In this document: positions 2,947-63,234 of the stretch, in pieces | Position numbering within the stretch: the stretch's first letter is position 1 | Layout: every line of letters starts with the position of its first letter | Assembly: GCA_035505375.1 (NCBI GenBank) | Contig: DATJQV010000075.1 | Coordinates: forward strand, 10,673 to 74,672 | Direction: 5' to 3' | DNA from: a bacterium | GTDB lineage: Bacteria > Hydrothermota > Tepidihabitantia > Tepidihabitantales > Tepidihabitantaceae | DNA: 64,000 nt | Program-made: the position numbers and the translations under genes | Notes under the pieces: model-generated | Database searches by the model: none | What the model was told of the DNA's origin: nothing | What the model saw: only the letters and a program-made list of their open reading frames with translations

Positions 2947-4362
2947 ATGGTCGCTGCCGGCCGGGTAGCCAGAGCATTGCTTGTGCTCGCGCTGCCTGCG
3001 CTGGCAGCGACGACTTTTCACCGGCAGTGGCACTGGTACAAGGCCGACGACGGCCGCTCAGCCGCGCAGCTCAACGACAGCGGGTATATCACCAGCGGGG
3101 TGGTGCAGGAATCTTCCGGTCTCTACGGCGTGGTGCTCGCCCGCATCGACCATCTCGGCGATACGACCTCGGTGCAGCGCTTCCTCAATCTGGATTCAAT
3201 CGGCGGCTTCTCATGCCGCCTGCCGGACGGTGGCTACGCGCTGCTGGCTGAGTCCGCGACGAAGATTCTGGTACGCAGGTACGGTGCGGCAGGTGATTCA
3301 GCCTGGGAGTACCGGTCTGCGTGGGGCGGCCCGATTTCTGCTCTCATGCCGACCTTCGACGGCGGCTGCCTTGTGGCCGGTCGGATTCCTGACACGGCCT
3401 ACTCCATGGGCGCCATCAAGCTGGCAGCGGATGGCCACGAGGAATGGAGGCACTGCTATTACGACCCAACGGTTTCCGCGTCCTCTGCCTACGGCGCTTC
3501 CCAGACCCGCGATTCAGGTTACATCCTCTGCGGTGACGCGAATGACTATATGGGGTCCTATCTGCGACTGGTCCGGCTGACGCCGGGCGGCGATACGGTC
3601 TGGGCCAGAATCTACGCTGGCACGGTCGGCCCGATGCTCAGCGACGTGCGGGAGATGTCCGACAGCGGCTTCCTTGCCGTCGGGTACGTGTTCGACACCT
3701 CGGGCCGCAATGCCTTCTACATGATGCGCACAGCCGGGGCCGGCGACACGGTCTGGACCCGCCGCCTCGCGCCCGCGGGTGCGGCTGCTCAGGCAGCGGC
3801 CATGTGCGCAACCAGCGACGGCGGCTTTGCCGTCATCGGCGTCGCGGACTGGGGTGACTCAGCTCGCGCCTGGCTGGTCAAGACCAACGCCTTGGGCGAC
3901 ACGGTCTGGACCGCGGTCCTGCCCGGCTCCGGACATGAGGTAGGCAATGATGTCGAGCAGACCGCCGACGGTGGCTACGTGATTGCCGGCACATCGGACG
4001 CAGGCGGCGGCAGCATGCTGCTGATCAAGACTGACTCGCTGGGCTATGTGGCATATGGCATTGCTGAGGACAAGCCACTCGCGGTCTCCGGTCGCATCGT
4101 CCTGTCAGTCGAGCCAAACCCCGCGAGCAGTCTCGTCCGCATCGCCTGCTCCCTGCCCGGCAACGATGCGTCCCGCATCACCCTGACGATGTACGATGCC
4201 CTCGGCCGGAAGGTATTCGCATCATCCGGTCTCCGGTCTTCGGTCTCCGGTTCCCGCACTTCGTCCTTCGTCCTTCGAACTTCGTCCTTTCCCCCGGGTG
4301 TCTACCTGCTCCGGCTCGCGTCCGGCGGTAGCTCCGCAGTCCGGAAACTGGTCCTCCAGTAA
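2947..4362 (+). CDS. secreted beta-propeller-repeat protein (recurrent GDTVW[TA]R blades) with T9SS C-terminal sorting domain
   Basis: N-terminal signal-like MVAAGRVARALLVLALPALAAT. Blade-like motifs recur about 45 aa apart (AAGDSAWEYRS, GGDTVWARIY, AGDTVWTRRL, LGDTVWTAVL). The C-terminus is VEPNPASSLVRIACSLPGNDASRITLTMYDALGRKVF...GVYLLRL...RKLVLQ. Confidence 0.7.
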   Translation: MVAAGRVARALLVLALPALAATTFHRQWHWYKADDGRSAAQLNDSGYITSGVVQESSGLYGVVLARIDHLGDTTSVQRFLNLDSIGGFSCRLPDGGYALLAESATKILVRRYGAAGDSAWEYRSAWGGPISALMPTFDGGCLVAGRIPDTAYSMGAIKLAADGHEEWRHCYYDPTVSASSAYGASQTRDSGYILCGDANDYMGSYLRLVRLTPGGDTVWARIYAGTVGPMLSDVREMSDSGFLAVGYVFDTSGRNAFYMMRTAGAGDTVWTRRLAPAGAAAQAAAMCATSDGGFAVIGVADWGDSARAWLVKTNALGDTVWTAVLPGSGHEVGNDVEQTADGGYVIAGTSDAGGGSMLLIKTDSLGYVAYGIAEDKPLAVSGRIVLSVEPNPASSLVRIACSLPGNDASRITLTMYDALGRKVFASSGLRSSVSGSRTSSFVLRTSSFPPGVYLLRLASGGSSAVRKLVLQ

Positions 4363-4420: not shown

Positions 4421-5845
4421 GTGCGTATAGGCGCTATCACTGGAATCGCAATAGCCCTGCTCCTGCTGCCCGGGCCGGCACAGGCAACGGTCACCTTCCA
4501 CCGCCAGTGGCACTGGTACACACAGGATGCGGGCCGCTCCGTAGCCCAGCTCACAGACAGCGGGTACGTCATCAGCGGCGGCTTGCAGGAATCCACCAGC
4601 ATCTTCGGTGTCGTGCTCGCCCGCACTGATTACCGCGGCGACACGACCTCAGTGAAGCGCATCCTCAATCTGGACGCAAATGGCGGTCTCTCCTGCCGGC
4701 TGTCGGACGGCGGCTACGCGCTGCTGGCCGAGTCCGGCGCGAAAATCCTGGTACGCAAGTACAATGCGTCAGGTGACTCGGTCTGGGAGTACCGGTCTGC
4801 CTGGGGCGGCCAGCTTTCTGCATTCACGCCGACCTTCGACGGCGGTTGCCTTGTGGCCGGCCGGATTCCGGATTCGTCCCCGTACAACATGGGCGCCATC
4901 AAGCTGTCGGCGGACGGCAACCAGCAATGGGCGCGCCACTACCACGAACCGACCATGTCCATGTCATGGGCCTTTGGCGCTGCCCAGACCAGCGACTCGG
5001 GCTACATCCTCTGCGGTGAAGCGACCAACTACTCTACGACCGACGTGCGCCTGGTCCGACTCAAGCCCGGCGGCGACACGGTCTGGACCAGGCTGTACAA
5101 CGGCCCGGTCGGCCCGATGCTCAACGACGTGCGGGAGATGGCGGACAGCGGCTTTCTTGCAGTCGGGTACATGTTCGACACCTTGACCGGCAACCGCGCC
5201 CTCTACATGCTGCGCACGAACTCCCGCGGCGACACGGTCTGGACGCGACACGTCGCGGACACGTTTGCGGCTCGTCAGGCAACAGCCATGTGTGCGACCA
5301 GAGACGGCGGCTTTGCGATCGCCGGGCAGATTGGCTGGACTGACTCCACTCGGGCCTGGCTGGTAAAAACCAACGCCCAAGGCGACACGGTCTGGACCTC
5401 GGTCCTGCCCGGCTCGGGAGATGAGGTCGGCGTTGATGTCGAGCAGACCGCCGATGGCGGCTACGTGGTCGCCGGCACGTGCGACTCGGCCGGCACGCCC
5501 GACAGCCTTCTGCTGATTAAGACCGACTCCCTTGGCCACGTGACGTCCGGAATAGCCGAGGGAAGCCGGCCTTCGCCCGACCACATCGCTTTCCGGGTGG
5601 CGCCCAGCCCGGCGGGCGGGATCGCACGCATCGAATACTCGCTGCCGGGCGGCGCTTCGGCCACCCTGAAAATGTATGATGCCCTCGGCCGGCAGGTGTT
5701 CTCATCGTCCGCCCTCCCGTCTGCGGTCTCCGATTCCCACGCTTCGTCATTCGTCCTTCGAACTTCGTCCTTCTCCCCGGGTGTCTACCTGCTCCGGCTC
5801 GAGTCGAGTCGCGGCTCGGCAGAACGCAAGCTCGTCATCGAGTGA
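4421..5845 (+). CDS. tandem paralog of 2947..4362: secreted beta-propeller-repeat protein with T9SS CTD (apparent GTG start)
   Basis: About 60 % identical in arrangement (TFHRQWHWY, GDTVWTR repeats, ...MYDALGRQVF...GVYLLRL...RKLVIE). The upstream element TTGACG 4387-4392 / TAGACT 4409-4414 would make the mRNA nearly leaderless, so the start assignment is uncertain. Confidence 0.7.
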   Translation: MRIGAITGIAIALLLLPGPAQATVTFHRQWHWYTQDAGRSVAQLTDSGYVISGGLQESTSIFGVVLARTDYRGDTTSVKRILNLDANGGLSCRLSDGGYALLAESGAKILVRKYNASGDSVWEYRSAWGGQLSAFTPTFDGGCLVAGRIPDSSPYNMGAIKLSADGNQQWARHYHEPTMSMSWAFGAAQTSDSGYILCGEATNYSTTDVRLVRLKPGGDTVWTRLYNGPVGPMLNDVREMADSGFLAVGYMFDTLTGNRALYMLRTNSRGDTVWTRHVADTFAARQATAMCATRDGGFAIAGQIGWTDSTRAWLVKTNAQGDTVWTSVLPGSGDEVGVDVEQTADGGYVVAGTCDSAGTPDSLLLIKTDSLGHVTSGIAEGSRPSPDHIAFRVAPSPAGGIARIEYSLPGGASATLKMYDALGRQVFSSSALPSAVSDSHASSFVLRTSSFSPGVYLLRLESSRGSAERKLVIE

Positions 5846-10494: not shown

Positions 10495-11736
10495 CTACGC
10501 TCTGCGTAACTCGCCAGCGTCTGCAACTAGTTCTGTCGGTCGTCCCCGGCTCATGAAATCGAGCAGGCTCATCGTATAGCCATATGCGCCCGCGTTGAGC
10601 AGGCCCACGAGGTCGCCGGGTTTCGGCATCGGCAGGTGTTCATCCTTGGCGATGCAATCCAGCGGCGTGCAAATCGGGCCGCACACGTCCACCCGCCTCA
10701 ACCCTCGTCCCTCGTCCCCCGCCCCTCGTCCCTCATCTAGCCGGTTGAGAAGTCGGGCCGGATGCCTGATGCGCATGAACACCGGCCGCGAAAACGCGTT
10801 CATGCCGCCGTCGCAGATTGCGAACACCCGGCCCCGTGACTCTTTCACCCGCACCACGCGGGTGACAAACACGCCTGCCTCGGCCACGAGAAATCGCCCG
10901 CTCTCGAAGAGCAACCGGCAGTTTGGATTCTCAGCACGAAACGCCGCCAGCGACGCGGACACGGCCTCGGCCAGCCCGGCCAGGTCCAGCTCCGTGTCGC
11001 CCTCGTTCTGCGGCACGCCGAACCCGCCTCCGAAGTCAACGGTCTCCAGCTTGAACCCGATTTCCAGGCTCAGCCGCCGCGCCAGCTTGAACACGTATTC
11101 GATGTGCGTCCCGAGCCACACCTTGTCCAGCACCTGGCTTGCCGAGTAGACCTGGATTCCCGCGATTCTGGCGTTTTCCAGCTTTGCTCCGGTCACGTCC
11201 GTCACGACGCGCTCCTCGTCGAACCCGAACTTGCTCGGGCCGCCGACCATCACTTCCTTGGCTTCGGGCTGCGACTCCTTCGTGTTGATACGAAGGAGCA
11301 CTCGGGGCCTCACCGCCAAGCTGCGTGCGGCAGCCTCGATCAGTTCGAGGTCTGAGGCCGAATCGGCGACGATTGCGTGAACGCCGGCCCGCAGCACCTG
11401 CTCGACGTCGGCCGCACTCTTGGCCGGCGCCACATAGACGATATTCTCGGGAGTGAACCCTGCGGCAAGTGCCGTCGCGAGCTCCTTCGGCGAGCTGACC
11501 TCGGCGCCGGAACCGGAACGCCTCAGGATGTCGCAGACCGACGGGTTTGGATTTGACTTAAGTGAATAGCAGATGTCGAACGCGGGGAAGCTCTGCTTCA
11601 GCAGCCGTAGCTTCGTCCTGATCGCCGTGGCTGAGTAGAGGTAGAGCGGAGTCTGGTATTTGGCCGCAATCTCCTCCAGCGTCACGCCATCCGCCACGAA
11701 CCGGCCATCCTTCACGAAGAAATCATCAAAGCGCAT
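10495..11736 (-). CDS. PLP-dependent decarboxylase of the Orn/DAP/Arg decarboxylase family (fold type III); most likely diaminopimelate decarboxylase
   Basis: PLP-lysine motif YSLKSNPN (compare YAVKAN). The C-terminal motif VCGPICTPLD resembles the LysA CGPLCESGD motif. The GGGFG glycine loop is present and the length is 413 aa. Confidence 0.75.
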   Translation of the reverse strand: MRFDDFFVKDGRFVADGVTLEEIAAKYQTPLYLYSATAIRTKLRLLKQSFPAFDICYSLKSNPNPSVCDILRRSGSGAEVSSPKELATALAAGFTPENIVYVAPAKSAADVEQVLRAGVHAIVADSASDLELIEAAARSLAVRPRVLLRINTKESQPEAKEVMVGGPSKFGFDEERVVTDVTGAKLENARIAGIQVYSASQVLDKVWLGTHIEYVFKLARRLSLEIGFKLETVDFGGGFGVPQNEGDTELDLAGLAEAVSASLAAFRAENPNCRLLFESGRFLVAEAGVFVTRVVRVKESRGRVFAICDGGMNAFSRPVFMRIRHPARLLNRLDEGRGAGDEGRGLRRVDVCGPICTPLDCIAKDEHLPMPKPGDLVGLLNAGAYGYTMSLLDFMSRGRPTELVADAGELRRA

Positions 11737-11747: not shown

Positions 11748-11923
11748 GACAATAGTGAATTCAGAATACTGAAACCAGAAACTAGAACTACCGGCCCCAA
11801 TTCTCTCAGCATGTCGTTGCGGGCATTCTGAATTCTGGTCACTGGCTTCTGACTTCTGCTTTCTCCATCCGCGTTCCTAGAATTCTGCATTGTGGTTTCT
11901 GATTTCTGAATTCTGGTTTGTCC
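11748..11923. repeat. GGACAAACCAGAA-family inverted-repeat element filling the intergenic gap
   Basis: GGACAATAGTGAATTCAGAATACTGAAACCAGAAACTAGAA ... TTCTGCATTGTGGTTTCTGATTTCTGAATTCTGGTTTGTCC. It abuts the stop codon of the DUF364-like gene. Confidence 0.6.
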
Positions 11924-12732
11924 TATGCCCTGCGGTATACCTCGATTGTGCTCGTCCCCTGGAAGATATAGAACGGGAACAATTCGGACACGACCGCATC
12001 CACGCCGATGCTCCGGCAGTACTCCTCGCCGAAGTTGGCGCCGGTCTCGGCGAATACGAGCAGCTTGGTCCCGGCCTTCTTTGCCTCTTCCACGATGAGC
12101 TCAAGCGAATCGGTAGCGATGGTCATGCCGGTGACGATAGCGAGGTCGGACTCACGCACAAGGTCATACGTCCTGGTGCCGTCCTCGACCAGCACGCCGT
12201 GAACCTTGGTGCCGACCGTGTCGCGCTCCATGTCGCTCGCCCGCACGTCGTAGCCGCGCGCCACCAGGTCCCGCACGATGTTCCCCACCAGTCCGACATT
12301 CACCACCCGCGCCGGGCGCGAGCAGATGCCCGAGACCAGTCGCTCGGCCTCATGCAGGATGATCTCGGTCCGCGCGTCAGTCTTCTGTATCGGTGTCCCG
12401 ACCAACTGGAAGCTGGCCGCCGGCCTGCGCTCCATGGTTGCGTAGAGCGAATCCAATGCCGCGATGGAAATGCACGTCTTCTCTCCGACCAGTTCCCGCA
12501 CGTCGTGTCCTACCAGCTCGCGGCCCCGCTGGTCGTCGCCGGTGCAGTAGCAGCAGCCCTGCCCGCGCGTCATCGCCAGCCAGAACGTGTACTTGAATGT
12601 CCGCTCGGCCGGATTGGGCTTGAACGCCAGTTCCACCCTCCATATGCCCCTGACCAGGAAATCCTCTGCTGGCGCCTTCTCCATCCTCTCAAACGCCCGC
12701 TCCCGCAATACGGCAAATATGTCGGTCATCAC
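11923..12732 (-). CDS. DUF364/DUF4213-like Rossmann-fold protein (putative; function unknown)
   Basis: 269 aa with ordinary protein composition, whereas the overlapping plus-strand ORF 11890..12771 is R/H/P-rich. Central VGLVGNIVRDLVARGYDVRASD is a Rossmann-like segment. The family assignment is from memory and is weak. Confidence 0.6.
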   Translation of the reverse strand: MMTDIFAVLRERAFERMEKAPAEDFLVRGIWRVELAFKPNPAERTFKYTFWLAMTRGQGCCYCTGDDQRGRELVGHDVRELVGEKTCISIAALDSLYATMERRPAASFQLVGTPIQKTDARTEIILHEAERLVSGICSRPARVVNVGLVGNIVRDLVARGYDVRASDMERDTVGTKVHGVLVEDGTRTYDLVRESDLAIVTGMTIATDSLELIVEEAKKAGTKLLVFAETGANFGEEYCRSIGVDAVVSELFPFYIFQGTSTIEVYRRA

Positions 12733-12930
12733 TCAGCTCCTGACAATAGTAAACTCAGAATGCAGAATTAAGGAGGACGGGGGTCGAGGATTCAAGGAAT
12801 CTAGGGGTCTAGTGACCGGAAGCGAAGGTCCGCATCCATCTGTGTTCATCCGTGTTAATCCGTGGTCGGCAACTTCGGCCCCGACCCTGAACTCCGATCT
12901 CCCGTTTCTGGTTTGTCCATCCATGGCGGT

Positions 12931-14259
12931 CTATCGCTCTGCCATCCTCTGCCTCAGCCAATCTCCGAGTTCGGCCGCCAAAGCCTGCTCATGCTCAAGA
13001 TAATTGTGCGGCGCGCCCTCGATGACGACACCGGAAAACGACAGGCAGTTATCAAGGCACTCGGCAATCCCCTCGACGAAGCCTTGCGCCGGGCCGACAA
13101 AGTACTCCTCGACCGTACCGACCGCGAGGAATACGGGCACCTCGACCGCCGCGAGTTCCGGAAACTCCTCCTGGTCGGTGCGGCTGATGTTGAAGATGCC
13201 GGTCAGCGACTTCGGGCCATAGGCTTCAACGAAAGTCCGCGCGGAAACCGGGCCCTCATAGAACCGCGGAGGCATCAACTCCGTCTCCCGCCCCTGCCGA
13301 ACCAATCGTTTGGCATAGGCAAGCGCCTTGGGGAACGTCGCGCCCAACTTCTCATGAATCCAGCCCTGCGTATCAGCCGGAGAAAGCAGGATGAGCCCGG
13401 CGACGCGAGGGTCGCGCGTCCTGGCAAGGTAATGGACGACCTTCATCGCGCCAAGGCTGTGCCCCTGCAGAAACACCTTCCGGCAGCCGCGCGACTCAGC
13501 GAAGTCCACCGCCGCCTTCACATCCGGCAAGCAGTCGCCAAAACGCTCAAACATCCCTCCCACCTGCACATAGTCCAGCCGCTCCGCCACCTTTGGCTTT
13601 TGGCTTTTGGCCTTTGCCTTTTGACTTGAGCCGTCTCCCTCTTTTGTCTCCAGTTCTACATTCTGGTTTCTGGTTTCTGACTTCTGGTTTCTCCGACTCC
13701 GCAGCATGTCTGCAACTTCTGTCTGAGGAAAGTCGAGCTCCGGTTCCCGCTCGCGCAATTCTGAATTCTGGTTTCTGGTTTCTGATATCTGGTTTCTCCG
13801 ACTCCTCAGTACGTCTGCAATATAGTCGTGTCCGCGGTTATTGAACGCCGCAAATGAGATGCCGCTCCGTCGGCATGCGTCCGCCGCGTAGTCTATGAAC
13901 CGATTCTCATAGAAGTTCCCATCCCACCCGTGAACATGAACCAGGCAGAAGGGACTAGGGGCTAGGGGCTGGGGATTAGGGCCCGAAAACCTCGTCTCTT
14001 GTCCCTCGTCCCTCGTCCCAGCGGGTTGGTACATCCCACTGAGTTCCAAGCCATCGTCGGTCACGATGCGACACAGCTCGCCGGGTATGCTGCGAAAACG
14101 GGGACTGTACCGCGCCGTGTTTGATGCAGGCGCTCCGAGGGACTGTCCCCGCTTTCGAAGTAAGCTTCTCGCGTCGCTCCGTGGACGTGTCCCCTCCCTG
14201 GGACTGTCCCCATTTTCGCGGTGCCGGGACTGTCCCCGCTTTGGAATTGGTGTCTTCAC
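12931..14259 (-). CDS. alpha/beta-hydrolase-fold protein (GHSLGA nucleophile elbow) interrupted in-frame by a ~200-bp repeat-element insertion; true start probably downstream of the annotated M
   Basis: N-terminal hydrolase segment LVHVHGWDGNFYEN (HG oxyanion motif) and C-terminal segment VFLQGHSLGAMKVVHYL (GxSxG). Between them lies LRSRRNQISETRNQNSELRE...LRSRRNQKSETRNQNVELETKEGDGSSQKAKAKSQKPKVAE, which is the translation of two GGACAAACCAGAA-family repeat copies plus AAGCCAAA repeats. The extreme N-terminus runs through GGGACTGTCCC repeats. Confidence 0.55.
   Translation of the reverse strand: MKTPIPKRGQSRHRENGDSPREGTRPRSDARSLLRKRGQSLGAPASNTARYSPRFRSIPGELCRIVTDDGLELSGMYQPAGTRDEGQETRFSGPNPQPLAPSPFCLVHVHGWDGNFYENRFIDYAADACRRSGISFAAFNNRGHDYIADVLRSRRNQISETRNQNSELREREPELDFPQTEVADMLRSRRNQKSETRNQNVELETKEGDGSSQKAKAKSQKPKVAERLDYVQVGGMFERFGDCLPDVKAAVDFAESRGCRKVFLQGHSLGAMKVVHYLARTRDPRVAGLILLSPADTQGWIHEKLGATFPKALAYAKRLVRQGRETELMPPRFYEGPVSARTFVEAYGPKSLTGIFNISRTDQEEFPELAAVEVPVFLAVGTVEEYFVGPAQGFVEGIAECLDNCLSFSGVVIEGAPHNYLEHEQALAAELGDWLRQRMAER
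13625..13830. repeat. two tandem copies of the CAGAAACCAGAA repeat element plus AAGCCAAAAGCC microsatellite, embedded in-frame in the hydrolase CDS
   Basis: TTCTGGTTTCTGGTTTCTGACTTCTGGTTTCTCCGACTCCGCAGCATGTCTGCAA occurs twice about 95 bp apart. It is preceded by GGCTTTTGGCTTTTGGCCTTTGCC. Confidence 0.6.
14064..14235. repeat. cluster of GGGACTGTCCC(CGCTTT) repeats plus a CTCGCGTCGCTCCGTGGACGTGTCCC unit; the same family reappears at 61300..61495
   Basis: GGGACTGTACCGCG, GGGACTGTCCCCGCTTTCG, GGGACTGTCCCCATTTTCG, GGGACTGTCCCCGCTTTGG and CTTCTCGCGTCGCTCCGTGGACGTGTCCCCTCC. Compare CGTTCTCGCGTCGCCCCGTGGACGTGTCCCTTCG at 61455-61490. Confidence 0.55.
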
Positions 14260-15745: not shown

Positions 15746-16228
15746 TCAATGCTCCTTACCCTTGTAGATAGAGAACTCCGGTCGTAGCGCTGCTATGGCA
15801 AAGGCCTCTTTAACTTGGCGCTCCTTCTCGTTCGTGTCCTCGAAGAAACGGTACCCACAGCTCTCTCTCATGAAGCGCTTGGCTTCATCGTGGTCATACG
15901 CGCAGTCAAAGTGCACCAAGGCATTGCGAAGCTGCGAAGCGTGCTTGTCTCCCATCAGGTGATTCTGGTACAGGCGTTGGCGCAAGTTCTTGGTTGTCCC
16001 GACATACACGATTCCTGCGTAAGGCCCACGCGTGATAGAGATGGCATAAATCCCACCGGTCGTGGGTAGCTTGCTTGGCACAAGCGTTCTGAACGGCCGC
16101 GCCCGCGACGCCAAGAAGTCGTCAAGCCATCGGCCAAGGGCTGCGAGTTGGGTCCTTGCGCGATCCCGGACGGGGCCGTTCAGTATTGAGTTGGTGGACA
16201 TGATGTGCGTCTCCTCATCCTGCTTCAC
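15746..16228 (-). CDS. GIY-YIG nuclease family protein
   Basis: GGIYAISITRGPYAGIVYVGTTKNLRQRLYQNH contains the GIY ... YVG ... R ... N signature. The start overlaps the HerA stop by 14 nt, suggesting translational coupling. Confidence 0.75.
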   Translation of the reverse strand: MKQDEETHIMSTNSILNGPVRDRARTQLAALGRWLDDFLASRARPFRTLVPSKLPTTGGIYAISITRGPYAGIVYVGTTKNLRQRLYQNHLMGDKHASQLRNALVHFDCAYDHDEAKRFMRESCGYRFFEDTNEKERQVKEAFAIAALRPEFSIYKGKEH

Positions 16229-29334: not shown

Positions 29335-29478
29335 GGCGGACGCGGAGAAACCAGAAATCAGATATCAGAGAACTGAAAGCAGAATTGACCGAGGCTCGGA
29401 CAGAACGCAGTGAGGGCGGACGCGGAGAAACCAGAAATCAGATATCAGAGAACTGAAAGCAGATTCGGGTGTGCCCGG
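29335..29478. repeat. two direct copies (~78 bp period) of GGCGGACGCGGAGAAACCAGAAATCAGATATCAGAGAACTGAAAGCAGA
   Basis: Near-identical copies start at 29335 and 29413. The core belongs to the CAGAAACCAGAA family. Confidence 0.65.
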
Positions 29479-29517: not shown

Positions 29518-29937
29518 GTGGATACGCTAGACAGACTGGATGACAGGCTGGACATGGACAGCAGGCTGCTGCACTTCGCGGCAGATGTGATCGCGCTGGC
29601 TCCTCGTCTTCAGCGGTCGCCGACTGGAAGGTACCTTGTGGGACAGATGGTACGCGCGGGCACTTCAGCCGGGGCCAACTTCCAGGAGGCGCGCGGGGCC
29701 GAGAGTCGGGCTGACTTCGTGCACAAGATGCAAGTCGTACTCAAGGAGCTGCGCGAGACCGAATACTGGCTCAGGCTCCTCAGAGAGGCCAAGCTGATGC
29801 CATCGGATCTTCTAGCGGGCCCGCTCGCGGAAGTGGACGAACTGATTCGGATCGTCGTCAAGTCGGTGGTAACGGCGAAGACAAGACATTACAATGCGGG
29901 CGGCGGAGAAACCAGAAATCAGATATCAGAGAACTGA
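29518..29937 (+). CDS. four-helix-bundle protein (23S rRNA intervening-sequence protein family), second copy
   Basis: GQMVRAGTSAGANFQEARGAESRADFVHKMQVVLKELRETEYWLRLL matches the family pattern. The C-terminal 12 aa (GGETRNQISEN) are the translation of the adjacent repeat element. Confidence 0.6.
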   Translation: MDTLDRLDDRLDMDSRLLHFAADVIALAPRLQRSPTGRYLVGQMVRAGTSAGANFQEARGAESRADFVHKMQVVLKELRETEYWLRLLREAKLMPSDLLAGPLAEVDELIRIVVKSVVTAKTRHYNAGGGETRNQISEN

Positions 29938-31422: not shown

Positions 31423-34146
31423 CTAGGCCTGCGCAGATGCGAGCGCTTTGACCGCGCTCCGGAACGCTTCCTGCCCCGCGCCGAGCTTGTCGAGCTGGCC
31501 ACCGCCTTCGGCCAGGTCCGGCTTGCCGCCACCGCCGCCGCCCATTGCCGGGCCGACCGTCTTGGCCAACTTGCCCGCGGGAAGTGATGCCTGCAGGTCC
31601 GGGCTGACGAATACGACGTAGCGGATGCGCGGTCCCTCACCACCGGTGAGCAGTCCCGCGTACTTCTCTTTCAGCAGTTCGCGCACGCGGTCGGATACGA
31701 GCCTGAGCTCGCCGGTCTCGAACCTGGCGAAGTGGCTCACGACGGCCTTGAAGCCGCCGACGTCCTCGGGCTTGGCCGCCAGCTCGTCGCCGGCGACGCG
31801 CGCCAGTTGTGCTGACAGGCCGGCCAGCCTCTCGCCCTGTCGCTTCAGTTCCTCGCCCAGCCCTTCGACCTTCTTGACCAGCGTCTCCTCGGTCCCGCCC
31901 AGATGCTCAGTGAGCTGGGTCACGATGGCGCGCTCGGACGCCGCGTTCTCAAACGCCGCCCTGCCGACCAGCGCCTCGATGCGCCGGATGCCGGCGGCCA
32001 CGCCGGTTTCCGAGATGATGCGGAAAAGCCCGATCTGGCCCGTGCTCTTCAGGTGCGTACCGCCGCAGAGTTCCATCGAGAAGTCACCGACCTTCACGAC
32101 CGTCACCTTCTCGCCATACTGGTCACCGAAGAACGCCAGCGCGCCCATCGCCCGCGCCTCGTCCAGCGGCGTGTTGCGCAGGGCCTGGACATGCCGGTCG
32201 GCCACGACCTGCTCGTACACCGCCCGCTCCACGGCCAAGACTTGCGCCCGCGCCATCGGCTCGAACGCCGCGAAGTCGAAGCGCAGCCGTCCGGGCTCGA
32301 CCAGCGAACCTTCCTGTTTCACATAATCGCCAAGCGTCTTCCGCAGTGCTGCATGCAACAGGTGGGTGGCGGTGTGCGCCCGCTCGATTTCGCGCCTTCG
32401 CTCCGTGTCCACCGCCGCGAAGACCTTGCCGAGGGACATGACCGAACCGTCCGACGGTTCGGATCGTGTCCCGAGGTCCCCCAAGCTCCCCCGCACCAGC
32501 TTCGCCTTGCAGGCAGGCACGCCCTGCTTGTAGTAGGTATTCAGCACTTCGAGCTCGAATCCCTCGCCGATAATCTTCCCGGTGTCGCCGACCTGCCCGC
32601 CCATCTCGGCGTAGAACGGGCTCTTCTTGAGAACGACTTCATACAAGCGCGGGACATGACCGAAATCCTCCTGGGATTTCGGATCGTGTCCCAAGCCGTC
32701 CAACGGTGCGAAGCTCACTATCTCGGTGTCGACCTCGTCGCTGTCGTAGCCGACGAACTCCCAGTCGGCGGCACCTTCGTGCGCCGGACCGGTCGTGCTG
32801 ATGAATGTCTCTTTGCGGCTGCGCTCGCGCTGTTCCTGCATCGCCCGGTCGAATCCGGCCGTGTCGAGCTTCACTCCGGCATCTTCGGCCAGTTCCTTCA
32901 CGAGCTCGATGTGGAACCCGAAGGTGTCGTGCAGCTTGAACAGGTCGTCGCCGGGAATGAGTCCGTCGCGCCTGTGCGCGTCCAGCACGTTCTGCCAGCG
33001 CTCCAGCCCGGCATCGAGGGTACGCAGGAACCGCTCCTCTTCCGACTTGATGATAAGCGCCGCCTGCTCGCGCTTGGCCACGACTTCCGGGTACCACTGC
33101 CGCATCAACTCGACGACCTCGCCCGAGACCTTGTAGAGGAACGGCTCAGCTACGCCCTGCCGGTGGGCGAAGAGCAGCGCCCGACGCAGGATGCTGCGCA
33201 GAACGTAGCCCCGTGCCTCATTTGAGGGAATCACGCCATCGGCGATGGCGAAGGTCAGGGCGCGCGCGTGGTCCGCCGCGACGTATAGCATCGAAGGGAC
33301 ATGACCGAAATCCGCCGGGGATTTCGGATCGTGTCCCGAGACGCCTCGCCCTTCGCCCTTCGCATCCATATTGAGCATCTTTGCCGTCGCCTTCACGATA
33401 GGGGCGAAGAGGTCAGTCTCGAATATCGTCTTCTTCTTCTGGGAGACCATGGCCAACCGTTCCATGCCCATGCCGGTATCGATGCCGCGGTTCTTCAGCG
33501 GCTCGCGCTTACCGTCGGGCAACTGGTTGTACTGAGGGAAGACGATATTGTAGACTTCGCTGAAACGGTCGCAGTCGCAGCCCGGCGCGCAGTCCGCCTT
33601 GCCGCAGCCGAACTCGGCCCCGAGGTCCACGTAGATTTCCGAGCAGGGACCGCAGGCTCCGCCGCCCCCGACCGGGCCCCAGAAGTTGTCCTTGGCGCCG
33701 AGGCGGACGACCCTGTTGGCCGGCAGGCCGACCTTGGTGCGCCAGACGTTGTAGGCCTCATCGTCCTCGGTGAAGACCGAAGCGTACAAGCGCTCCGCGT
33801 CGAGCTTCACGACCTGGGTCAGGTATTCCCACGCCCAGGGAATCGCCTCGTGCTTGAAGTAGTCGCCGAACGAGAAGTTACCAAGCATCTCGAAGAATGT
33901 GCCGTGGCGCGGAGTCTTGCCGACCTGGTCGAGGTCGGACGCGCGCAGGCACTTCTGGATGGAAGTCGCCCGGCGATAGGGCAGTTCGACCGTTCCCGCC
34001 CAGTACGGCTTGAACTGGACCATGCCCGCGCTGGTAAAAAGCATGGTCGGGTCGTCCCTCGGAATCAGGGACGAACTCGGTACGACCCGGTGGTCCCGCT
34101 GGCCGTAAAACTCAAGGAACGTCCGACGCAGCTCGCGGTGATTCAT
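31423..34146 (-). CDS. alaS: alanine--tRNA ligase (AlaRS) carrying three in-frame 40-42-bp palindromic insertions
   Basis: N-terminal RDDPTMLFTSAGMVQFKPYW, with FGDYFKHEAIPWAWE and HTATHLLHAAL (editing domain). C-terminal DHHA1-like region is present. The length is 907 aa. Inserted peptides are GHDPKSPADFGHVP, GHDPKSQEDFGHVP and GTRSEPSDGSVMSL. Confidence 0.9.
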   Translation of the reverse strand: MNHRELRRTFLEFYGQRDHRVVPSSSLIPRDDPTMLFTSAGMVQFKPYWAGTVELPYRRATSIQKCLRASDLDQVGKTPRHGTFFEMLGNFSFGDYFKHEAIPWAWEYLTQVVKLDAERLYASVFTEDDEAYNVWRTKVGLPANRVVRLGAKDNFWGPVGGGGACGPCSEIYVDLGAEFGCGKADCAPGCDCDRFSEVYNIVFPQYNQLPDGKREPLKNRGIDTGMGMERLAMVSQKKKTIFETDLFAPIVKATAKMLNMDAKGEGRGVSGHDPKSPADFGHVPSMLYVAADHARALTFAIADGVIPSNEARGYVLRSILRRALLFAHRQGVAEPFLYKVSGEVVELMRQWYPEVVAKREQAALIIKSEEERFLRTLDAGLERWQNVLDAHRRDGLIPGDDLFKLHDTFGFHIELVKELAEDAGVKLDTAGFDRAMQEQRERSRKETFISTTGPAHEGAADWEFVGYDSDEVDTEIVSFAPLDGLGHDPKSQEDFGHVPRLYEVVLKKSPFYAEMGGQVGDTGKIIGEGFELEVLNTYYKQGVPACKAKLVRGSLGDLGTRSEPSDGSVMSLGKVFAAVDTERRREIERAHTATHLLHAALRKTLGDYVKQEGSLVEPGRLRFDFAAFEPMARAQVLAVERAVYEQVVADRHVQALRNTPLDEARAMGALAFFGDQYGEKVTVVKVGDFSMELCGGTHLKSTGQIGLFRIISETGVAAGIRRIEALVGRAAFENAASERAIVTQLTEHLGGTEETLVKKVEGLGEELKRQGERLAGLSAQLARVAGDELAAKPEDVGGFKAVVSHFARFETGELRLVSDRVRELLKEKYAGLLTGGEGPRIRYVVFVSPDLQASLPAGKLAKTVGPAMGGGGGGKPDLAEGGGQLDKLGAGQEAFRSAVKALASAQA
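32433..32472. repeat. palindromic element GGGACATGACCGAACCGTC-CGACGGTTCGGATCGTGTCCC inside alaS (copy 1)
   Basis: Perfect or near-perfect hairpin with GGGACA/TGTCCC termini. Translated in-frame on the minus strand. Confidence 0.6.
32651..32692. repeat. palindromic element GGGACATGACCGAAATCC-TCCT-GGGATTTCGGATCGTGTCCC inside alaS (copy 2)
   Basis: 42 bp (14 codons), in-frame. Confidence 0.6.
33295..33336. repeat. palindromic element GGGACATGACCGAAATCC-GCCG-GGGATTTCGGATCGTGTCCC inside alaS (copy 3)
   Basis: 42 bp, in-frame. It adds about 14 aa relative to the alignment expectation before the conserved VAADHxRA segment. Confidence 0.6.
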
Positions 34147-60093: not shown

Positions 60094-61212
60094 CTAACGC
60101 TGGACGACGAGCTTGCGGCTCAGGGTCGTGCAGCCTGAAGTCAGCTTGCAGAAATAGACGCCGTTCGCCACCGGGCGGCCGCTATCATCGTCGAGGTTCC
60201 ACGTCGCGTGCCGATGGGCCGGGCCGGCCGCGGCCGACCGGACCGAGCGGACCTGCCGGCCATTGACGTCGAACATCGCCAGCGTAGCGCTTGATGCCTC
60301 ATGCATGATGCCGGGCAGAGAGTATTCGATTAGGACCGCCCCGGTCGCCGGGTTCGGCCCGACCGAGAACGCGAAGGCCTGAGCCAAGGCATGCGGCTCT
60401 TCGATTCCGGTCTGCGGCGCGTGCACCCTGAACCGATAGATCCACGACAGCGAGATTGAACTGACGTAGACGCAGCCGCCGTCAACCGAATCGTTTCGGA
60501 ACCCGATTCCCGACATGTAGGACGACAGCCCGGTCGGAAACGTGTCCAGCGGCGTGAACGTGTTGGCGCTGGTATCGAACGCGACGTACATCAGCTTGTT
60601 CGGCGAGCCGGTGGAGGGCGACGTCCAGAGTCGGTTGGGGAACATCAGGTCGAGCTTGAGGTCCCGGGCGATCGTCGACGGGAATCCGCCCGAGCGGCTC
60701 AAGGTCTTCGTCACTGTGCCGTCCGGCGTCATCAGATAGATACTGAGGTCGCTGCTGAACGACGTAGCCCAGAAATGCGACCCGTCCCAGTCCAGGCCGC
60801 GTACCTCCACGCCGCCGGTCGGGTAGAAGCTGCGCACGTACGTCCCGTCCAGCGTGTACACCTCGCAGAACTCGGGGCTGGCAATGCGCGACACGCAGAT
60901 CGAGTCGCCGAACGGGCAGATCGCGATAACCGAAGCGCCCGACTGCGTCGGGAACGAATCGATTACGGCCCCGGTCAACCGGTCCCGGTAATAGACCATG
61001 TACCCCTGCAACGCGCAGAACACCGTGTCATTACGCACGGCGATGCACTGGTACTGGACTTGAGACGGGATGGAATCGAGCTTGACGAGCATCGAATCGC
61101 AGGGACTGCACTCAGGCCGCGCGGGCACACCGACCCGGCTCGCAAAAGGAGCGGCACTGACGAGCGCGGCCGCTAGAACTGGCACGAGCGGAACAAAGAT
61201 ACTCTTCCGCAT
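60094..61212 (-). CDS. secreted protein with T9SS C-terminal sorting domain (function unknown)
   Basis: Signal peptide MRKSIFVPLVPVLAAALVSAAPFAS, taking the internal start at 61212. C-terminus NPATGAVLIEYSLPG...ATLAMFDVNGRQVRSV...ATWNLDDDSGRPVANGVYFCKL...RKLVVQR. Confidence 0.65.
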   Translation of the reverse strand: MRKSIFVPLVPVLAAALVSAAPFASRVGVPARPECSPCDSMLVKLDSIPSQVQYQCIAVRNDTVFCALQGYMVYYRDRLTGAVIDSFPTQSGASVIAICPFGDSICVSRIASPEFCEVYTLDGTYVRSFYPTGGVEVRGLDWDGSHFWATSFSSDLSIYLMTPDGTVTKTLSRSGGFPSTIARDLKLDLMFPNRLWTSPSTGSPNKLMYVAFDTSANTFTPLDTFPTGLSSYMSGIGFRNDSVDGGCVYVSSISLSWIYRFRVHAPQTGIEEPHALAQAFAFSVGPNPATGAVLIEYSLPGIMHEASSATLAMFDVNGRQVRSVRSAAAGPAHRHATWNLDDDSGRPVANGVYFCKLTSGCTTLSRKLVVQR

Positions 61213-61299
61213 TATTACCTCCCGCGCGCTTATGGCGCGCCTCATCATAGTCCGCGTCCTGCCCGTGTCAACGACCATGGGGTAGGCGACACGTCCATG

Positions 61300-61495
61300 C
61301 GGGAAACAGGGACTGTCCCGCGCTGAGTACGACGCAAGCGCTCCGAGAAACTGCGCTCGTTTTCCGCCATCTCAGCGACAGTCCCCATTTCCCAAGACGC
61401 AGAGGGCGGCCGTAGCCGCCCTCTCGAAGCTCGGATTGGGGCCACTCCCGCGACGCGTTCTCGCGTCGCCCCGTGGACGTGTCCCTTCGTACTAC
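61300..61495. repeat. second locus of the GGGACTGTCCC / CTCGCGTCGCYCCGTGGACGTGTCCC repeat family (compare 14064..14235)
   Basis: GGGACTGTCCCGCGCTGAG...GCGCTCCGAGAAACTG...CAGCGACAGTCCCCATTTCCC...CGTTCTCGCGTCGCCCCGTGGACGTGTCCCTTCG. Confidence 0.5.
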
Positions 61496-63234
61496 TGAAT
61501 AACTACGGGCCTCGTGGTTGTACGCGTGCCGGTGGTGGTGAGGCACACGAGGTACGTGCCGGCCGCGACCTTGCCATCCCAGACGAACGAACCGCCCGCC
61601 GGGGCCGCAATGCTCCGCACGATTCTGCCGGCGACGTCGGTGATCGCCAGCCTGGTCGCGCTGCCGCTCCAGCTCACTCGCACCGGCCCGCGCGCCACGC
61701 TCGGCGCAACCCGGAATGCCGCCGCCGGCCGTTCCGGTTGTGCAGGACTCTCGATCGCGCCGTTGAACCACGGTGCGTTGAAGTAGCCATTCACGTCATT
61801 CGGGTACGTATAGCCGGGGAATATGAGCCCGCCGCCGGAGCCCGGTCCGCCCGGCGAGTAGACTATCCTTGGGAACGCGGTCAAGCCGTAGCCGGGATAG
61901 CCCGATTTGTTGACCCACGTGTCGCTCAGGGCAGTCCAGGTAGTGGGTGCGGTGTTGACCGAATAGCCGAGCCAAACATTGTTGTGATGGTTGACCGTGT
62001 CTATCTTCACGTACGACAGGTTGACGTAGGCGTTGCCCGAGGACGCATAGTTCTTCAGGTCCACGTAAGCTTCCGGGGTTGTGGTGTTGGCGACGTGGGT
62101 GGGGCCGACCCAGGAGTCGCTGGCGCTCACGCCCGGATCTTTCATGTAGGCCGAATACACGTCCCAATCGTTGGTGCCATTGTAGTTGTGGGTGTAAGCG
62201 AGCCAGACGTTGGCGCTTTCCGGCGGGGTTGTGAAGGCCGGCGCTATGGCCGCGTCGTTAATCCGGAACGTATCCGGACGGAAATCCACCATGTACCACG
62301 TGCCCGGCGAGGACCAGTTATGTGTAAAGCCCGTAGCCACGGTGCCCTTGAAGTAGGCCTGGTTCGGCACGCAAGCCATGCAACCGCAGGAACCCGCCCC
62401 GAACGCCATGCGTGGCAGGGCCCGGTTGGGTATCGTGTCCGTCACCGCCCAAGTCTGTCCGAAGTCGAAGGACCGCAGGATGAAGCTCCGCGGAAAGTCG
62501 CCGGACTCGAGGCCGTTGTGTGCAATCGCGTAGAGATAGTACGAGGTGTACGAGTAATCGCGGCAGGCGGTGAAGTCGGTGATGGAGTCCGCCCCGGCGA
62601 GAACCGCCCAACCGGTCAGGCCGGAGCCGTCCTTGGCGCACCGCGCCACGTAGAGGTCGCCGTTGTTGGTGGGGACGTTCTCGAACACGTAGACAAACCC
62701 GGAGTCGCCCGAGCCGACCACCAGCTCGATCTTGTTGATGATGTGTTTCGGGGGCCACCAAATTTCCTGGACTGTGGCCCAGTGTGAACCGTGGTCGGTG
62801 GACTTGTAGACCCAGACCGTCGAGTCGCCGTACGAGGCGAAGGCGGCCCACATCGTGCCGTCCATCTCGTAGTCGGCCGACGAGGCGCTCACACGACCCG
62901 TGAAGATTTGCCGGTCGGCCACGAGGTTGCCCTCGGTTCGCGCCTGCGGGCGGGCGCACATCGGCGTGACCTCGTGCGGCACGGCGCCCTGCTGCCGAAT
63001 CAGTGCTGCCTGCACTTGGTTCTCTAGGTCACGGGCACCGGCCTCGTCCCCATTGGCGAGAGCGATGCGCTCCTGCGCCTGCAACGCAGCGATGTCCGGA
63101 CTCACCCGGGAGTGGTAGTTCCCTGACGTTACACTATTCCCGGTCGGCAACGTGGACCGCGCCGGCGGGGTATTGGCCATCACCATGCCTGCCATGCAGA
63201 GCAGCGCGATGGCAACGACGACTACGCTACGCAT
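61492..63234 (-). CDS. secreted BNR/Asp-box-repeat protein (sialidase/glycoside-hydrolase-like beta-propeller) with T9SS C-terminal sorting domain
   Basis: Signal peptide MRSVVVVAIALLCMAGMVMA. BNR motifs STDHGSHW and SFDFGQTW. C-terminus FRVAPSVARGPVRVSWSGSATRLAITDVAGRIVRSI...FVWDGKVAAGTYLVCL...RPVVIQ. Confidence 0.7.
   Translation of the reverse strand: MRSVVVVAIALLCMAGMVMANTPPARSTLPTGNSVTSGNYHSRVSPDIAALQAQERIALANGDEAGARDLENQVQAALIRQQGAVPHEVTPMCARPQARTEGNLVADRQIFTGRVSASSADYEMDGTMWAAFASYGDSTVWVYKSTDHGSHWATVQEIWWPPKHIINKIELVVGSGDSGFVYVFENVPTNNGDLYVARCAKDGSGLTGWAVLAGADSITDFTACRDYSYTSYYLYAIAHNGLESGDFPRSFILRSFDFGQTWAVTDTIPNRALPRMAFGAGSCGCMACVPNQAYFKGTVATGFTHNWSSPGTWYMVDFRPDTFRINDAAIAPAFTTPPESANVWLAYTHNYNGTNDWDVYSAYMKDPGVSASDSWVGPTHVANTTTPEAYVDLKNYASSGNAYVNLSYVKIDTVNHHNNVWLGYSVNTAPTTWTALSDTWVNKSGYPGYGLTAFPRIVYSPGGPGSGGGLIFPGYTYPNDVNGYFNAPWFNGAIESPAQPERPAAAFRVAPSVARGPVRVSWSGSATRLAITDVAGRIVRSIAAPAGGSFVWDGKVAAGTYLVCLTTTGTRTTTRPVVIQ

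What the first reader, a model, noticed from the sequence alone, without database searches (positions are those of the whole stretch)
12931..14259. Alpha/beta hydrolase gene carrying an in-frame ~200-bp insertion of the GGACAAACCAGAA repeat element
- Two copies of the element, plus an AAGCCAAA microsatellite, lie between the HG oxyanion segment and the GHSLGA nucleophile segment.
- They are translated in-frame as ...LRSRRNQISETRNQNSELRE...LRSRRNQKSETRNQNVELETKEGDGSSQKAKAKSQKPKVAE.
- The same peptide motif (ETRNQxSE) forms the C-terminal tail of the four-helix-bundle protein at 29518..29937.
- With the alaS case, this suggests selection for frame preservation when these elements land in genes.
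- Alternatively the gene is a decaying pseudogene.
Basis: seen in the sequence. Interest (0 to 1): 0.55.

Follow-up and report, generated by a model that had tools for sequence, protein, structure and literature searches.

The report
Repeat-derived in-frame loop insert in hydrolase
An apparently working esterase-type enzyme gene of an uncultured WOR-3 bacterium carries a 72-residue surface-loop insert copied from the genome's dispersed 7-base repeat elements, much like the "selfish DNA inside genes" known from Rickettsia.

Summary
ORF 12931..14259 (-) is a 442-aa alpha/beta hydrolase. Between the HVHGWDGN and GHSLGA motifs it holds a 225-nt in-frame segment (13579..13803) built from two (GAAACCA)n arrays and an (AGCCAAA)n array.

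Evidence for a live gene:
- All 31 invariant family residues are kept.
- dN/dS of the flanks is 0.11-0.29.
- The hydrolase-DUF364-decarboxylase gene order is conserved in relatives.

The AlphaFold2 model puts the insert at the tip of a beta-hairpin after strand beta4, with low confidence on a high-confidence core.

- The two copies are a 105-nt tandem duplication of the whole loop, including host codons on both sides. They are not two separate landings.
- The microsatellite unit is 7 nt, not 8.
- The shared ETRNQ peptide is arithmetic. All three frames of a heptamer array encode the same cyclic heptapeptide, so only length (a multiple of 3) and strand can be selected.
- Two more in-frame repeat inserts were missed, one at the N-terminus and one in the beta1-beta2 hairpin.

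Orthologues in a heptamer-rich WOR-3 subclade carry different arrays at the same sites. This is a new variant of a known kind, closest in behaviour to Rickettsia palindromic elements.

The parts
12931..14259 (-). Alpha/beta-hydrolase ORF, 442 aa, GTG start. This start is homologous to the start of the orthologues (..IVA-V-TK..).
   Evidence: No other in-frame start codon lies before codon 66, which is downstream of the conserved GELCRI strand.
13579..13803 (-). Loop insert, residues 153-227 (SRRNQISETRNQN...KSQKPKVAER). It sits between the hairpin strands 148-153 and 228-233, after beta4.
   Evidence: Alignments. AlphaFold2 model: pLDDT 44-69 here against over 90 in the core.
13714..13818 (-). 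Unit 1 of the 105-nt tandem duplication (residues 148-182). It comprises host ADVLR, the array RRNQISETRNQNSEL, the spacer REREPE, and a decayed copy of the host 3' flank (LDFPQTEV, from LDYVQVGG).
   Evidence: It aligns end to end with the whole loop of L083.
13651..13713 (-). Start of unit 2 (residues 183-203): the duplicated host 5' flank ADMLR plus the array RRNQKSETRNQNVEL, whose units are GAAACCA GAAGTCA GAAACCA GAAACCA GAATGTA.
   Evidence: Identical at 44/45 nt to the L083 array and 42/45 to L084 array 1.
13592..13627 (-). (AGCCAAA)x5 array encoding SQKAKAKSQKPK. This part is shared with the nearest relatives P0001, P0002 and P0017.
13951..14019 (-). Second in-frame repeat insert in the beta1-beta2 hairpin (residues 81-103). 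(GACGAGG)n encodes GTRDEGQETR and (CCCCTAG)n encodes PNPQPLAPSP.
   Evidence: The hairpin is 14-15 aa in basal homologues and 24-45 aa in the heptamer-rich clade. pLDDT is below 50 at residues 86-90.
14101..14244 (-). N-terminal extension made of GGGACWGTCCC palindromic elements, read in frame as KRGQS...YSPRFR.
   Evidence: The same element sits at the same place in L002, L006, P0013, P0016 and P0039.
13915..13938 (-). Oxyanion-hole segment HVHGWDGN (residues 108-115).
   Evidence: H108, H110, G111 and G114 are invariant in 109 homologues.
13447..13464 (-). Nucleophile elbow GHSLGA (residues 266-271, Ser268).
   Evidence: G266, H267, S268 and G270 are invariant. Strand 261-267 followed by helix 269-281 in the model.
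13006..13008 (-). Codon of the invariant His418 (GAPHNY), the presumed catalytic histidine.
12906..12918 (-). Canonical element terminus GGACAAACCAGAA, 13 nt downstream of the stop codon.
11923..12732 (-). Downstream DUF364 gene, a conserved operon partner.
   Evidence: The same gene order is seen in L082 and L084.
10495..11736 (-). Orn/DAP/Arg decarboxylase gene, a conserved operon partner. It also carries an in-frame (GACGAGG) array at 10702-10734.

Best explanation
This is an intact serine hydrolase gene under purifying selection, from a candidate-division WOR-3 bacterium. The genome is peppered with heptanucleotide-array repeat elements. In intergenic DNA these elements are palindromes of about 100 nt, GGACAA-(NNCAGAA)x5-loop-inverted array-TTGTCC.

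Single arms of such elements occupy three permissive places in the protein: just after the start codon, the beta1-beta2 hairpin, and the tip of a beta-hairpin after beta4.

The large loop insert was built in steps (inferred):
1. An (AGCCAAA)-type array, shared with the nearest relatives.
2. Acquisition of a (GAAACCA)-type array.
3. A 105-nt tandem duplication spanning the whole loop and a few host codons on each side.

The insert is tolerated because it projects from the surface as a hydrophilic, probably disordered or loosely helical segment. These heptamer units have no stop codon in any of the three frames of the strand that is read. All three frames give the same heptapeptide, so the only requirements are a length that is a multiple of 3 and the purine-rich strand as sense strand.

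The insert most likely has no specific function of its own.
For: Gene integrity:
- All 31 invariant columns of 109 homologues are present.
- dN/dS is 0.11-0.29 for both flanks against three relatives.
- The hydrolase-DUF364-decarboxylase order is conserved.

Position in the fold:
- AlphaFold2 gives a mean pLDDT of 80, with the core above 90 and the insert at 44-69, at the tip of strands 148-153 / 228-233.
- Foldseek matches feruloyl and cinnamoyl esterases and monoglyceride lipases, with TM-scores up to 0.79.

Origin from the dispersed family:
- The first 27 nt of unit 2 match the intergenic elements at 31399 and 34208 except for one base.
- The exact 27-mer occurs in 11 metagenome contigs. 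None of the 11 shows the hydrolase's flanking motifs in any frame. Eight show an inverted array downstream, a palindromic layout.

Duplication.

Lineage pattern:
- The loop is 5-9 aa in basal homologues, 17-59 aa in the heptamer-rich clade, and 77 aa here, the longest of 109.
- Period-7 arrays occur at 6.6-9.9 per 10 kb in the window and in L001-L004, against 0.5 per 10 kb in 50 distant loci.

Composition and strand: inserts are 65% KRDEQNST and 8.5% hydrophobic. Forward-strand tripeptides number 115, 186 and 255, against 3, 0 and 3 for the reverse strand.

RNA: the in-gene insert has no special structure (z = +0.7), whereas an intergenic element folds at -53.5 kcal/mol with z = -8.5.
Against: - No expression or protein data exist, and dN/dS averages over long branches, so a very recent inactivation cannot be excluded.
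- G422, which is at least 90% conserved, is Glu in this protein.
- The unit-2 array is 44/45 nt identical to that of L083, although the gene cores are only 63-78% identical and third positions only 50-61%. Neutral passenger DNA inherited vertically would not behave this way. It requires gene conversion, re-insertion from consensus copies, lateral exchange, or selection on the nucleotide sequence.
- The order of the building steps is inferred, not shown.
- Strand-bias counts come from one gene family and are not independent events.
Confidence: 0.72

Rival explanations
1. The insert is functional. The charged low-complexity segment could serve the enzyme as a flexible lid, tether or interaction arm. 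Alternatively its nucleotide sequence could be a binding site for a factor that recognises the heptamer arrays genome-wide. Either would explain why it is retained and kept close to consensus.
For: - Inserts at the same two sites persist throughout a large clade.
- The array is 44/45 and 42/45 nt identical between species whose gene cores are 60-78% identical.
- AlphaFold2 suggests two helices, 154-170 and 179-193.
Against: - Length and heptamer type change between close relatives. For example P0017 has QKAKAKSQK while its sister P0049 has QKSECRSQNAE.
- Close relatives P0006 and P0007 lack the loop insert altogether.
- The helices are low confidence.
- The insert RNA has no structure signal.
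- The conserved 27-mer is simply the family consensus, found in unrelated contexts.
Confidence: 0.15
2. The gene is a phase-variable contingency locus. Slipped-strand gain or loss of single heptamer units would switch the hydrolase on and off.
For: Five period-7 arrays lie inside one ORF. Heptamer units shift the frame unless they change in threes.
Against: - No array has more than 2 identical adjacent units, far below what drives frequent slippage.
- 13 of 15 orthologous loci are in frame, and the one frameshift seen (L009) lies outside the arrays.
- No population data are available.
Confidence: 0.05
3. The gene is a decaying pseudogene whose reading frame is still open by chance.
For: - The insert is the largest in the family.
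- GC3 is 0.68 against about 0.8 for neighbouring genes.
- There is a G422E change.
- The heptamer arrays are stop-free in every frame of the sense strand, so an open frame is weaker evidence than usual.
Against: - All invariant residues are retained.
- dN/dS is 0.11-0.29.
- Three separate inserts all have lengths that are multiples of 3.
- The operon is conserved.
- The low GC3 is explained by the A-rich arrays.
Confidence: 0.05
4. The 105-nt duplication is an assembly artefact, a collapsed or expanded repeat in a metagenome assembly.
For: The genome is probably a metagenome-assembled one (its relatives are all MAGs), and repeats are error-prone in assembly.
Against: - The two copies differ at 8 of 65 positions and have different right-hand flanks.
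- The result is exactly in frame.
- L084 and several proteins (P0008, P0019, P0036, P0042) independently show two-array loops of 46-57 aa.
Confidence: 0.03

Closest known systems
[quoted passage not shown] 2000, 2002, as summarised in PMC10969869)
   Same: - Small dispersed repeats without a transposase gene sit in frame inside unrelated housekeeping genes.
- They add a peptide at positions judged compatible with fold and function.
- The same genome holds many copies, both intergenic and intragenic.
- Here alaS, the decarboxylase and the hydrolase all carry such inserts.
   Different: - The lineage is unrelated (WOR-3) and I looked for no sequence relationship.
- The arms are heptanucleotide arrays rather than a unique sequence of about 150 bp.
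- The in-gene copies in the hydrolase are single arms with no palindrome (z = +0.7).
- They grow by tandem duplication and unit turnover.
- The encoded peptide does not depend on the reading frame.
Intragenic MITEs and REP-like elements (ERIC, BOX, cyanobacterial MITEs, REPINs)
   Same: The intergenic copies are short palindromes with inverted termini GGACAA / TTGTCC that form strong hairpins and lie between genes.
   Different: - No target-site duplication or terminal-inverted-repeat pair is seen around the in-gene copies.
- The duplicated flanks are 18 or more nt of host sequence on both sides, which is the signature of a tandem duplication.
- I did not look for a transposase or RAYT gene.
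Long heptanucleotide simple-sequence repeats in bacteria (work summarised in PMC4679880), including the TAACTGA repeats of marine Beggiatoaceae
   Same: Period-7 arrays are the dominant repeat class and are mostly intergenic: 22 of 42 arrays in the window lie in about 15% of the sequence.
   Different: - Here the arrays are organised as inverted pairs with fixed termini.
- Several lie deep inside conserved genes and are read through in frame. That is unusual for units that are not multiples of three (PMC4679880, introduction).
Contingency loci (phase variation by coding-region repeats)
   Same: Tandem repeats with a unit length that is not a multiple of three lie inside an ORF.
   Different: The arrays are short and imperfect, with at most 2 identical units. 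No on/off alleles were seen among 15 loci.

Membership tests
Alpha/beta-hydrolase fold (Pfam Hydrolase_4 / Abhydrolase_6 / DUF1749) | Profile match above the curated cut-off | tested here: met
   Hydrolase_4 scores 35.9 bits (cut-off 27), Abhydrolase_6 33.7 (26.3) and DUF1749 31.6 (24).
Alpha/beta-hydrolase fold (Pfam Hydrolase_4 / Abhydrolase_6 / DUF1749) | Nucleophile elbow G-x-S-x-G after a strand, an HG oxyanion motif, and a C-terminal catalytic His | tested here: met
   GHSLGA 266-271, HVHGWDGN 108-115 and H418 are invariant in 109 homologues. The model has a strand at 261-267 and a helix at 269-281.
Alpha/beta-hydrolase fold (Pfam Hydrolase_4 / Abhydrolase_6 / DUF1749) | Three-dimensional fold similar to solved alpha/beta hydrolases | tested here: met
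   Foldseek E-values of about 2e-10 and TM-scores (target-normalised) of 0.54-0.79 to esterases and lipases.
Alpha/beta-hydrolase fold (Pfam Hydrolase_4 / Abhydrolase_6 / DUF1749) | Hydrolytic activity and substrate | not testable with these tools
   The source label 'pimeloyl-ACP methyl ester carboxylesterase' is an automatic annotation.
RPE-like in-frame repeat insertion (behaviour, not sequence family) | A dispersed repeat family with both intergenic and intragenic copies in the same genome | tested here: met
   18 matches to the terminus motif against 0.82 expected. Element copies are listed and in-gene arrays.
RPE-like in-frame repeat insertion (behaviour, not sequence family) | The insert keeps the host reading frame and the host gene stays under purifying selection | tested here: met
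RPE-like in-frame repeat insertion (behaviour, not sequence family) | The insert lies at the protein surface or in a loop | tested here: met
   It lies at a hairpin tip with low pLDDT in a predicted model only. The loop is variable across homologues.
RPE-like in-frame repeat insertion (behaviour, not sequence family) | The inserted copy is itself a palindrome | tested here: not met
   The in-gene copies are direct single arms. RNA fold z = +0.7, against -8.5 for an intergenic element. The alaS inserts in the same window are palindromic.
Rickettsia RPE sequence families | Sequence similarity to RPE-1 to RPE-10 | not tested
   No RPE sequences were at hand. The lineage and composition make membership implausible.
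MITE | Terminal inverted repeats and a target-site duplication flanking the copy | tested here: not met
   The in-gene copies have one GGAGA/GGACA terminus only. The flanking duplications are 18 or more nt of host sequence on both sides of a 105-nt unit. Intergenic copies do have inverted termini.
Phase-variable contingency locus | A long perfect tandem array prone to slippage | tested here: not met
   At most 2 perfect adjacent units in any array of the gene.
Phase-variable contingency locus | Length polymorphism within a population | not testable with these tools
   No same-species sequence exists in the collections.

The most novel reading that the evidence does not exclude
The heptamer-array elements with GGGACA...TGTCCC-type termini may be an active, lineage-specific system in a WOR-3 subclade. 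On this reading they repeatedly colonise the same surface loops of conserved proteins. The in-gene arrays are kept near the family consensus by gene conversion or re-insertion, or are selected as nucleic-acid binding sites. That would create interchangeable 'coding microsatellite cassettes' whose peptide does not depend on the reading frame.

The following are compatible with this reading but do not prove it:
- the patchy distribution of loop inserts on the core tree;
- the 44/45-nt identity across species;
- the 23S_rRNA_IVP genes flanked by these elements.
Probability: 0.2. Interest if true: 0.65.

Novelty: new variant of a known kind. Interest (0 to 1): 0.45.

Why it matters
- **Repeats inside genes beyond Rickettsia.** It extends the phenomenon of selfish repeats living inside genes from Rickettsia to an uncultured phylum.
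- **A simple rule for non-triplet repeats.** Heptamer arrays without stop codons encode the same hydrophilic heptad in every frame. A non-triplet repeat can therefore persist in coding DNA if its length is a multiple of 3 and it lies on the right strand.
- **Annotation of WOR-3 MAGs.** Long low-complexity stretches in enzymes from these genomes need not indicate pseudogenes or misassemblies.
- **A natural experiment on insert tolerance.** The family of about 100 orthologues with loop lengths from 5 to 77 residues shows how much insertion an alpha/beta-hydrolase fold can tolerate at one site.

Tried and rejected
- **Exact-protein look-up of the window ORF:** nothing on record. The nearest relative is 77% identical over aligned columns. 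Strain-level polymorphism therefore could not be tested.
- **Rfam scan of the window:** only four tRNAs, and nothing in or near the gene.
- **RNA fold of the insert:** no structure signal, so I dropped an RNA-element reading.
- **PDB sequence search with the family profile:** only weak hits with E-values of about 1e-4. The fold search was needed instead.
- **The idea that the array is an orthologous, nucleotide-conserved feature of the hydrolase gene:**
  - It is weakened by the metagenome scan. The exact 27-mer occurs in 11 contigs, none of which shows the hydrolase motifs.
  - It is also weakened by the rapid turnover of array type among close relatives.
- **The exact 12-mer CAGAAACCAGAA:** almost absent from the related loci, with 1 match in 82. 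Relatives use other heptamer variants.
- **The similarity LDFPQTEV / LDYVQVGG inside the window:** on its own it is weak (13/24 nt, with the next-best in-frame match in the gene at 12). It became convincing only when unit 1 aligned end to end with the L083 loop.
- **PMC186582 (Ogata 2002):** not held. RPE features are therefore cited from the review PMC10969869.
- **Literature search for 'WOR-3' plus 'heptanucleotide':** no paper found.
Full report
**1. What is in the sequence**

ORF 12931..14259 on the minus strand encodes 442 aa from a GTG start. It passes the Pfam cut-offs for Hydrolase_4, Abhydrolase_6 and DUF1749, but only its C-terminal half aligns to the profiles.

Between the oxyanion segment HVHGWDGN (residues 108-115) and the nucleophile elbow GHSLGA (266-271) lies a repeat-rich stretch:
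- A 65-nt direct repeat at 13651-13715 and 13756-13820, 88% identical and 105 nt apart. Each copy holds a (TTCTGGT)x4.6 array on the + strand.
- A (TTTGGCT)x5.1 array at 13592-13627.

GGACAAACCAGAA with up to 2 mismatches gives 18 matches against 0.82 expected. TTCTGGTTTCTG with up to 1 mismatch gives 34 against 0.18. The quoted peptides are exact, and ORF 29518..29937 ends in GGGETRNQISEN*. The microsatellite unit is 7 nt, not 8.

**2. The genome background**

The window holds 42 merged period-7/14/21 arrays (6.6 per 10 kb). About half lie in the roughly 15% of sequence that is intergenic.

The intergenic elements have a clear anatomy: GGACAA, about five NNCAGAA heptamers, a short GC-rich loop, the inverted array, then TTGTCC. 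One example, 31310-31415, folds at -53.5 kcal/mol with z = -8.5.

The nearest genomic relatives of the gene are all candidate-division WOR-3 MAGs. Period-7 arrays are as dense in the closest loci (L001-L004 and L081, 8-10 per 10 kb). They are nearly absent from 50 more distant loci (15 arrays in 300 kb). Heptamer richness is therefore a trait of a WOR-3 subclade.

**3. Homologues and the position of the insert**

I found 349 homologues, of which the best 120 were listed. Basal members are about 300 aa and read straight across the site, for example ...DYVADLLRPAKRDYLQVGG....

Between the anchor residues R152 and Y230:
- The loop is 5-9 aa in 44 of 109 sequences.
- It is 17-59 aa in the heptamer-rich clade.
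- It is 77 aa in the window, the longest of all.

A second site, the beta1-beta2 hairpin, is 14-15 aa in basal members and 24-45 aa in the clade. The window has GTRDEGQETRFSGPNPQPLAPSP there, encoded by (GACGAGG) and (CCCCTAG) arrays at 13951-14019.

A third site lies after the start codon. The window and several orthologues (L002, L006, P0013, P0016, P0039) carry KRGQS...SPRFR, encoded by GGGACWGTCCC palindromes. No alternative start codon exists before codon 66, which is downstream of the conserved GELCRI strand. The N-terminal extension is therefore most likely translated.

**4. Structure**

AlphaFold2 with the 109-sequence alignment gives a mean pLDDT of 80 and pTM of 0.77. The core (61-78, 104-150, 228-440) is mostly above 90.

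Residues 148-153 and 228-233 form a beta-hairpin after beta4, and the insert is its tip. The insert has pLDDT 44-69, with two low-confidence helices (154-170, 179-193) and a coil.

Foldseek against the PDB returns feruloyl and cinnamoyl esterases, Est1E and monoglyceride lipases, with E-values of about 2e-10 and TM-scores up to 0.79. I did not compute the distance of the insert from the active site.

**5. Is the gene alive?**

- All 31 invariant columns of the family are present, including H108, H110, G111, S268, D296, E385 and H418.
- Nei-Gojobori dN/dS is 0.11-0.29 for the N-terminal flank and 0.13-0.17 for the C-terminal flank, against L081, L082 and L005.
- The order hydrolase, DUF364, Orn/DAP decarboxylase is the same in the window, L082 and L084.
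- Of 15 orthologous loci, 13 read as uninterrupted frames across the whole match. One is interrupted by masked N, and one has a frameshift outside the arrays.

A pseudogene is therefore unlikely, although a very recent inactivation cannot be excluded.

**6. How the insert was built**

At the DNA level, unit 1 (residues 148-182, 105 nt) aligns end to end with the entire loop of L083, the gene for P0028. The aligned parts are host ADxLR, the array, the spacer CGG/CGC-GAGCGGGAACCGGAGCT, and then GACTTTCCTCAG against host GACTATGTGCAG (LDFPQ against LDYVQ).

Unit 2 starts with a second copy of the host codons GCAGACATGCTGCGGAGT (ADMLRS). Host sequence is thus duplicated on both sides of a 105-nt unit. 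That is the signature of a tandem duplication of the whole loop, not of two transpositions.

The right-hand part of unit 2, SSQKAKAKSQKPKVAERLDYVQ, matches the loop of the nearest relatives (P0001 RSQKAKGKSQNAKVTARFDYVQ; P0017 RSQKAKAKSQKVKLAERLDYVQ). The order of events is inferred.

**7. Why the same peptide recurs**

For a perfect heptamer array, a shift of one base equals a shift of one unit minus two codons. All three frames of a strand therefore give the same cyclic heptapeptide (AAACCAG gives KPETRNQ, AGCCAAA gives SQKPKAK, GACGAGG gives DEGRGTR).

The hydrolase reads CGG AGA AAC CAG, whereas the 29518 ORF reads GGA GAA ACC AGA. Both give ETRNQ. The shared motif says nothing about frame choice.

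What can be filtered is length and strand:
- Inserts in 65 homologues are 65% KRDEQNST and 8.5% hydrophobic, against 37% and 36% in the core.
- Forward-strand tripeptides outnumber reverse-strand ones 115:3, 186:0 and 255:3.

These counts come from one gene family and are not independent events. Two T9SS C-terminal domains in the window do read CTTCGTC arrays in the other orientation.

**8. An unresolved point**

The 45-nt array of unit 2 is 44/45 identical to that of L083 and 42/45 to array 1 of L084. Yet the gene cores are 60-78% identical and third positions 43-67%. The best intergenic copy in the window reaches only 37/45.

Two observations weigh against simple orthologous conservation:
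- The exact 27-mer core occurs in 11 metagenome contigs. None shows the hydrolase motifs, and eight show an inverted array downstream.
- On a neighbour-joining tree of 266 core columns, loop type and loop presence are patchy. P0006, P0007, P0009 and P0014 in the window's own GHSLGA clade have no insert, and sister sequences differ in heptamer type.

The tree has no support values. The pattern suggests repeated gain, replacement or conversion of arrays at a permissive site, but I could not separate these possibilities.

**9. Rivals**

- **Phase variation** is unlikely. No array has more than two identical adjacent units.
- **An RNA element** is unlikely (z = +0.7, and no Rfam match).
- **An assembly artefact** is unlikely. 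The copies differ at 8 of 65 positions, and other species independently have two-array loops.
- **A functional role** for the charged segment, or for its nucleotide sequence, remains possible at low probability.

**10. Comparison with known systems**

The behaviour matches Rickettsia palindromic elements, which are small dispersed repeats found in frame inside unrelated genes at positions compatible with the fold (PMC10969869).

It differs in four ways:
- The lineage is unrelated.
- The arms are heptamer arrays.
- The in-gene copies here are single arms.
- The inserts grow by duplication.

Heptanucleotide repeats as the dominant long simple repeat in bacteria, mostly intergenic, are known. So is the rule that only units that are multiples of three are common in coding regions (PMC4679880). 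I found no paper on heptanucleotide repeats in WOR-3.

The same window also shows a 48-nt palindrome twice in frame in alaS and a (GACGAGG) array in the decarboxylase. The phenomenon is therefore genome-wide.

**Verdict**

I rate it a new variant of a known kind, of moderate interest.

Noticed in passing
window 32651-32698, 33296-33343 (partial third copy 32458-32475), inside alaS 31423..34146 (-): A 48-nt palindromic element, GGGACATGACCGAAATCC..GGATTTCGGATCGTGTCCC, occurs twice (92% identical) in frame in the alanyl-tRNA synthetase gene, read as GHDPKSxxDFGHVP. Its GGGACA/TGTCCC termini resemble those of the heptamer elements and the GGGACWGTCCC palindromes.
   Followed up: partly
window 10702-10734, inside the decarboxylase gene 10495..11736 (-): A (GACGAGG)x4.7 array is read in frame as EGRGAGDEGRG, 69 aa before the stop of the Orn/DAP/Arg decarboxylase gene.
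   Followed up: no
window 4225-4289 and 5742-5773: Two adjacent paralogous proteins (2947..4362 and 4421..5845) carry (TCCGGTC) and (CTTCGTC) arrays inside their T9SS C-terminal sorting domain. They are read from the pyrimidine-rich strand as SSFVLRT, the opposite orientation to the hydrolase inserts.
   Followed up: no
window 29346-29449, 29518-29937, 29907-30042; L084 8000-8510: The four-helix-bundle gene at 29518..29937 is flanked on both sides by heptamer elements. In L084 a gene with a Pfam 23S_rRNA_IVP hit (PF05635) is flanked the same way, and there it is an extra gene between DUF364 and the decarboxylase. It may be a mobile cassette. I did not run Pfam on the window ORF.
   Followed up: partly
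window 16215-23938 (-); L084 1-5732: Directly upstream of the hydrolase lie a SIR2_2 plus HerA/DUF87 gene pair and a 1462-aa helicase with an MTES_1575 nuclease domain. L084 has a type I restriction-modification system plus AAA ATPases at the same position. This looks like a variable defence island next to a conserved operon.
   Followed up: no
window 13651-13695 compared with L083 and L084: The 45-nt in-gene array is 44/45 and 42/45 nt identical between species whose hydrolase cores are only 60-78% identical. Gene conversion, re-insertion, lateral exchange and nucleotide-level selection were not distinguished.
   Followed up: partly
window 59287-59989: A cluster of four tRNA genes (59325-59397, 59501-59573, 59666-59737, 59902-59989) is interleaved with period-7 and period-14 arrays.
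   Followed up: no
window 61309-61385: Two more GGGACWGTCCC-type palindromes (the second with one mismatch) lie between genes 60094..61278 and 61492..63234. They belong to the same family as those in the hydrolase N-terminus.
   Followed up: no
L009 about 3880-3998: The orthologue in MAG SRP178699_co1_414 loses the frame just before the conserved CMVNCPSF...GAPHNY segment, outside any array. It is either a real pseudogene or an assembly error. The related protein P0056 is intact.
   Followed up: no
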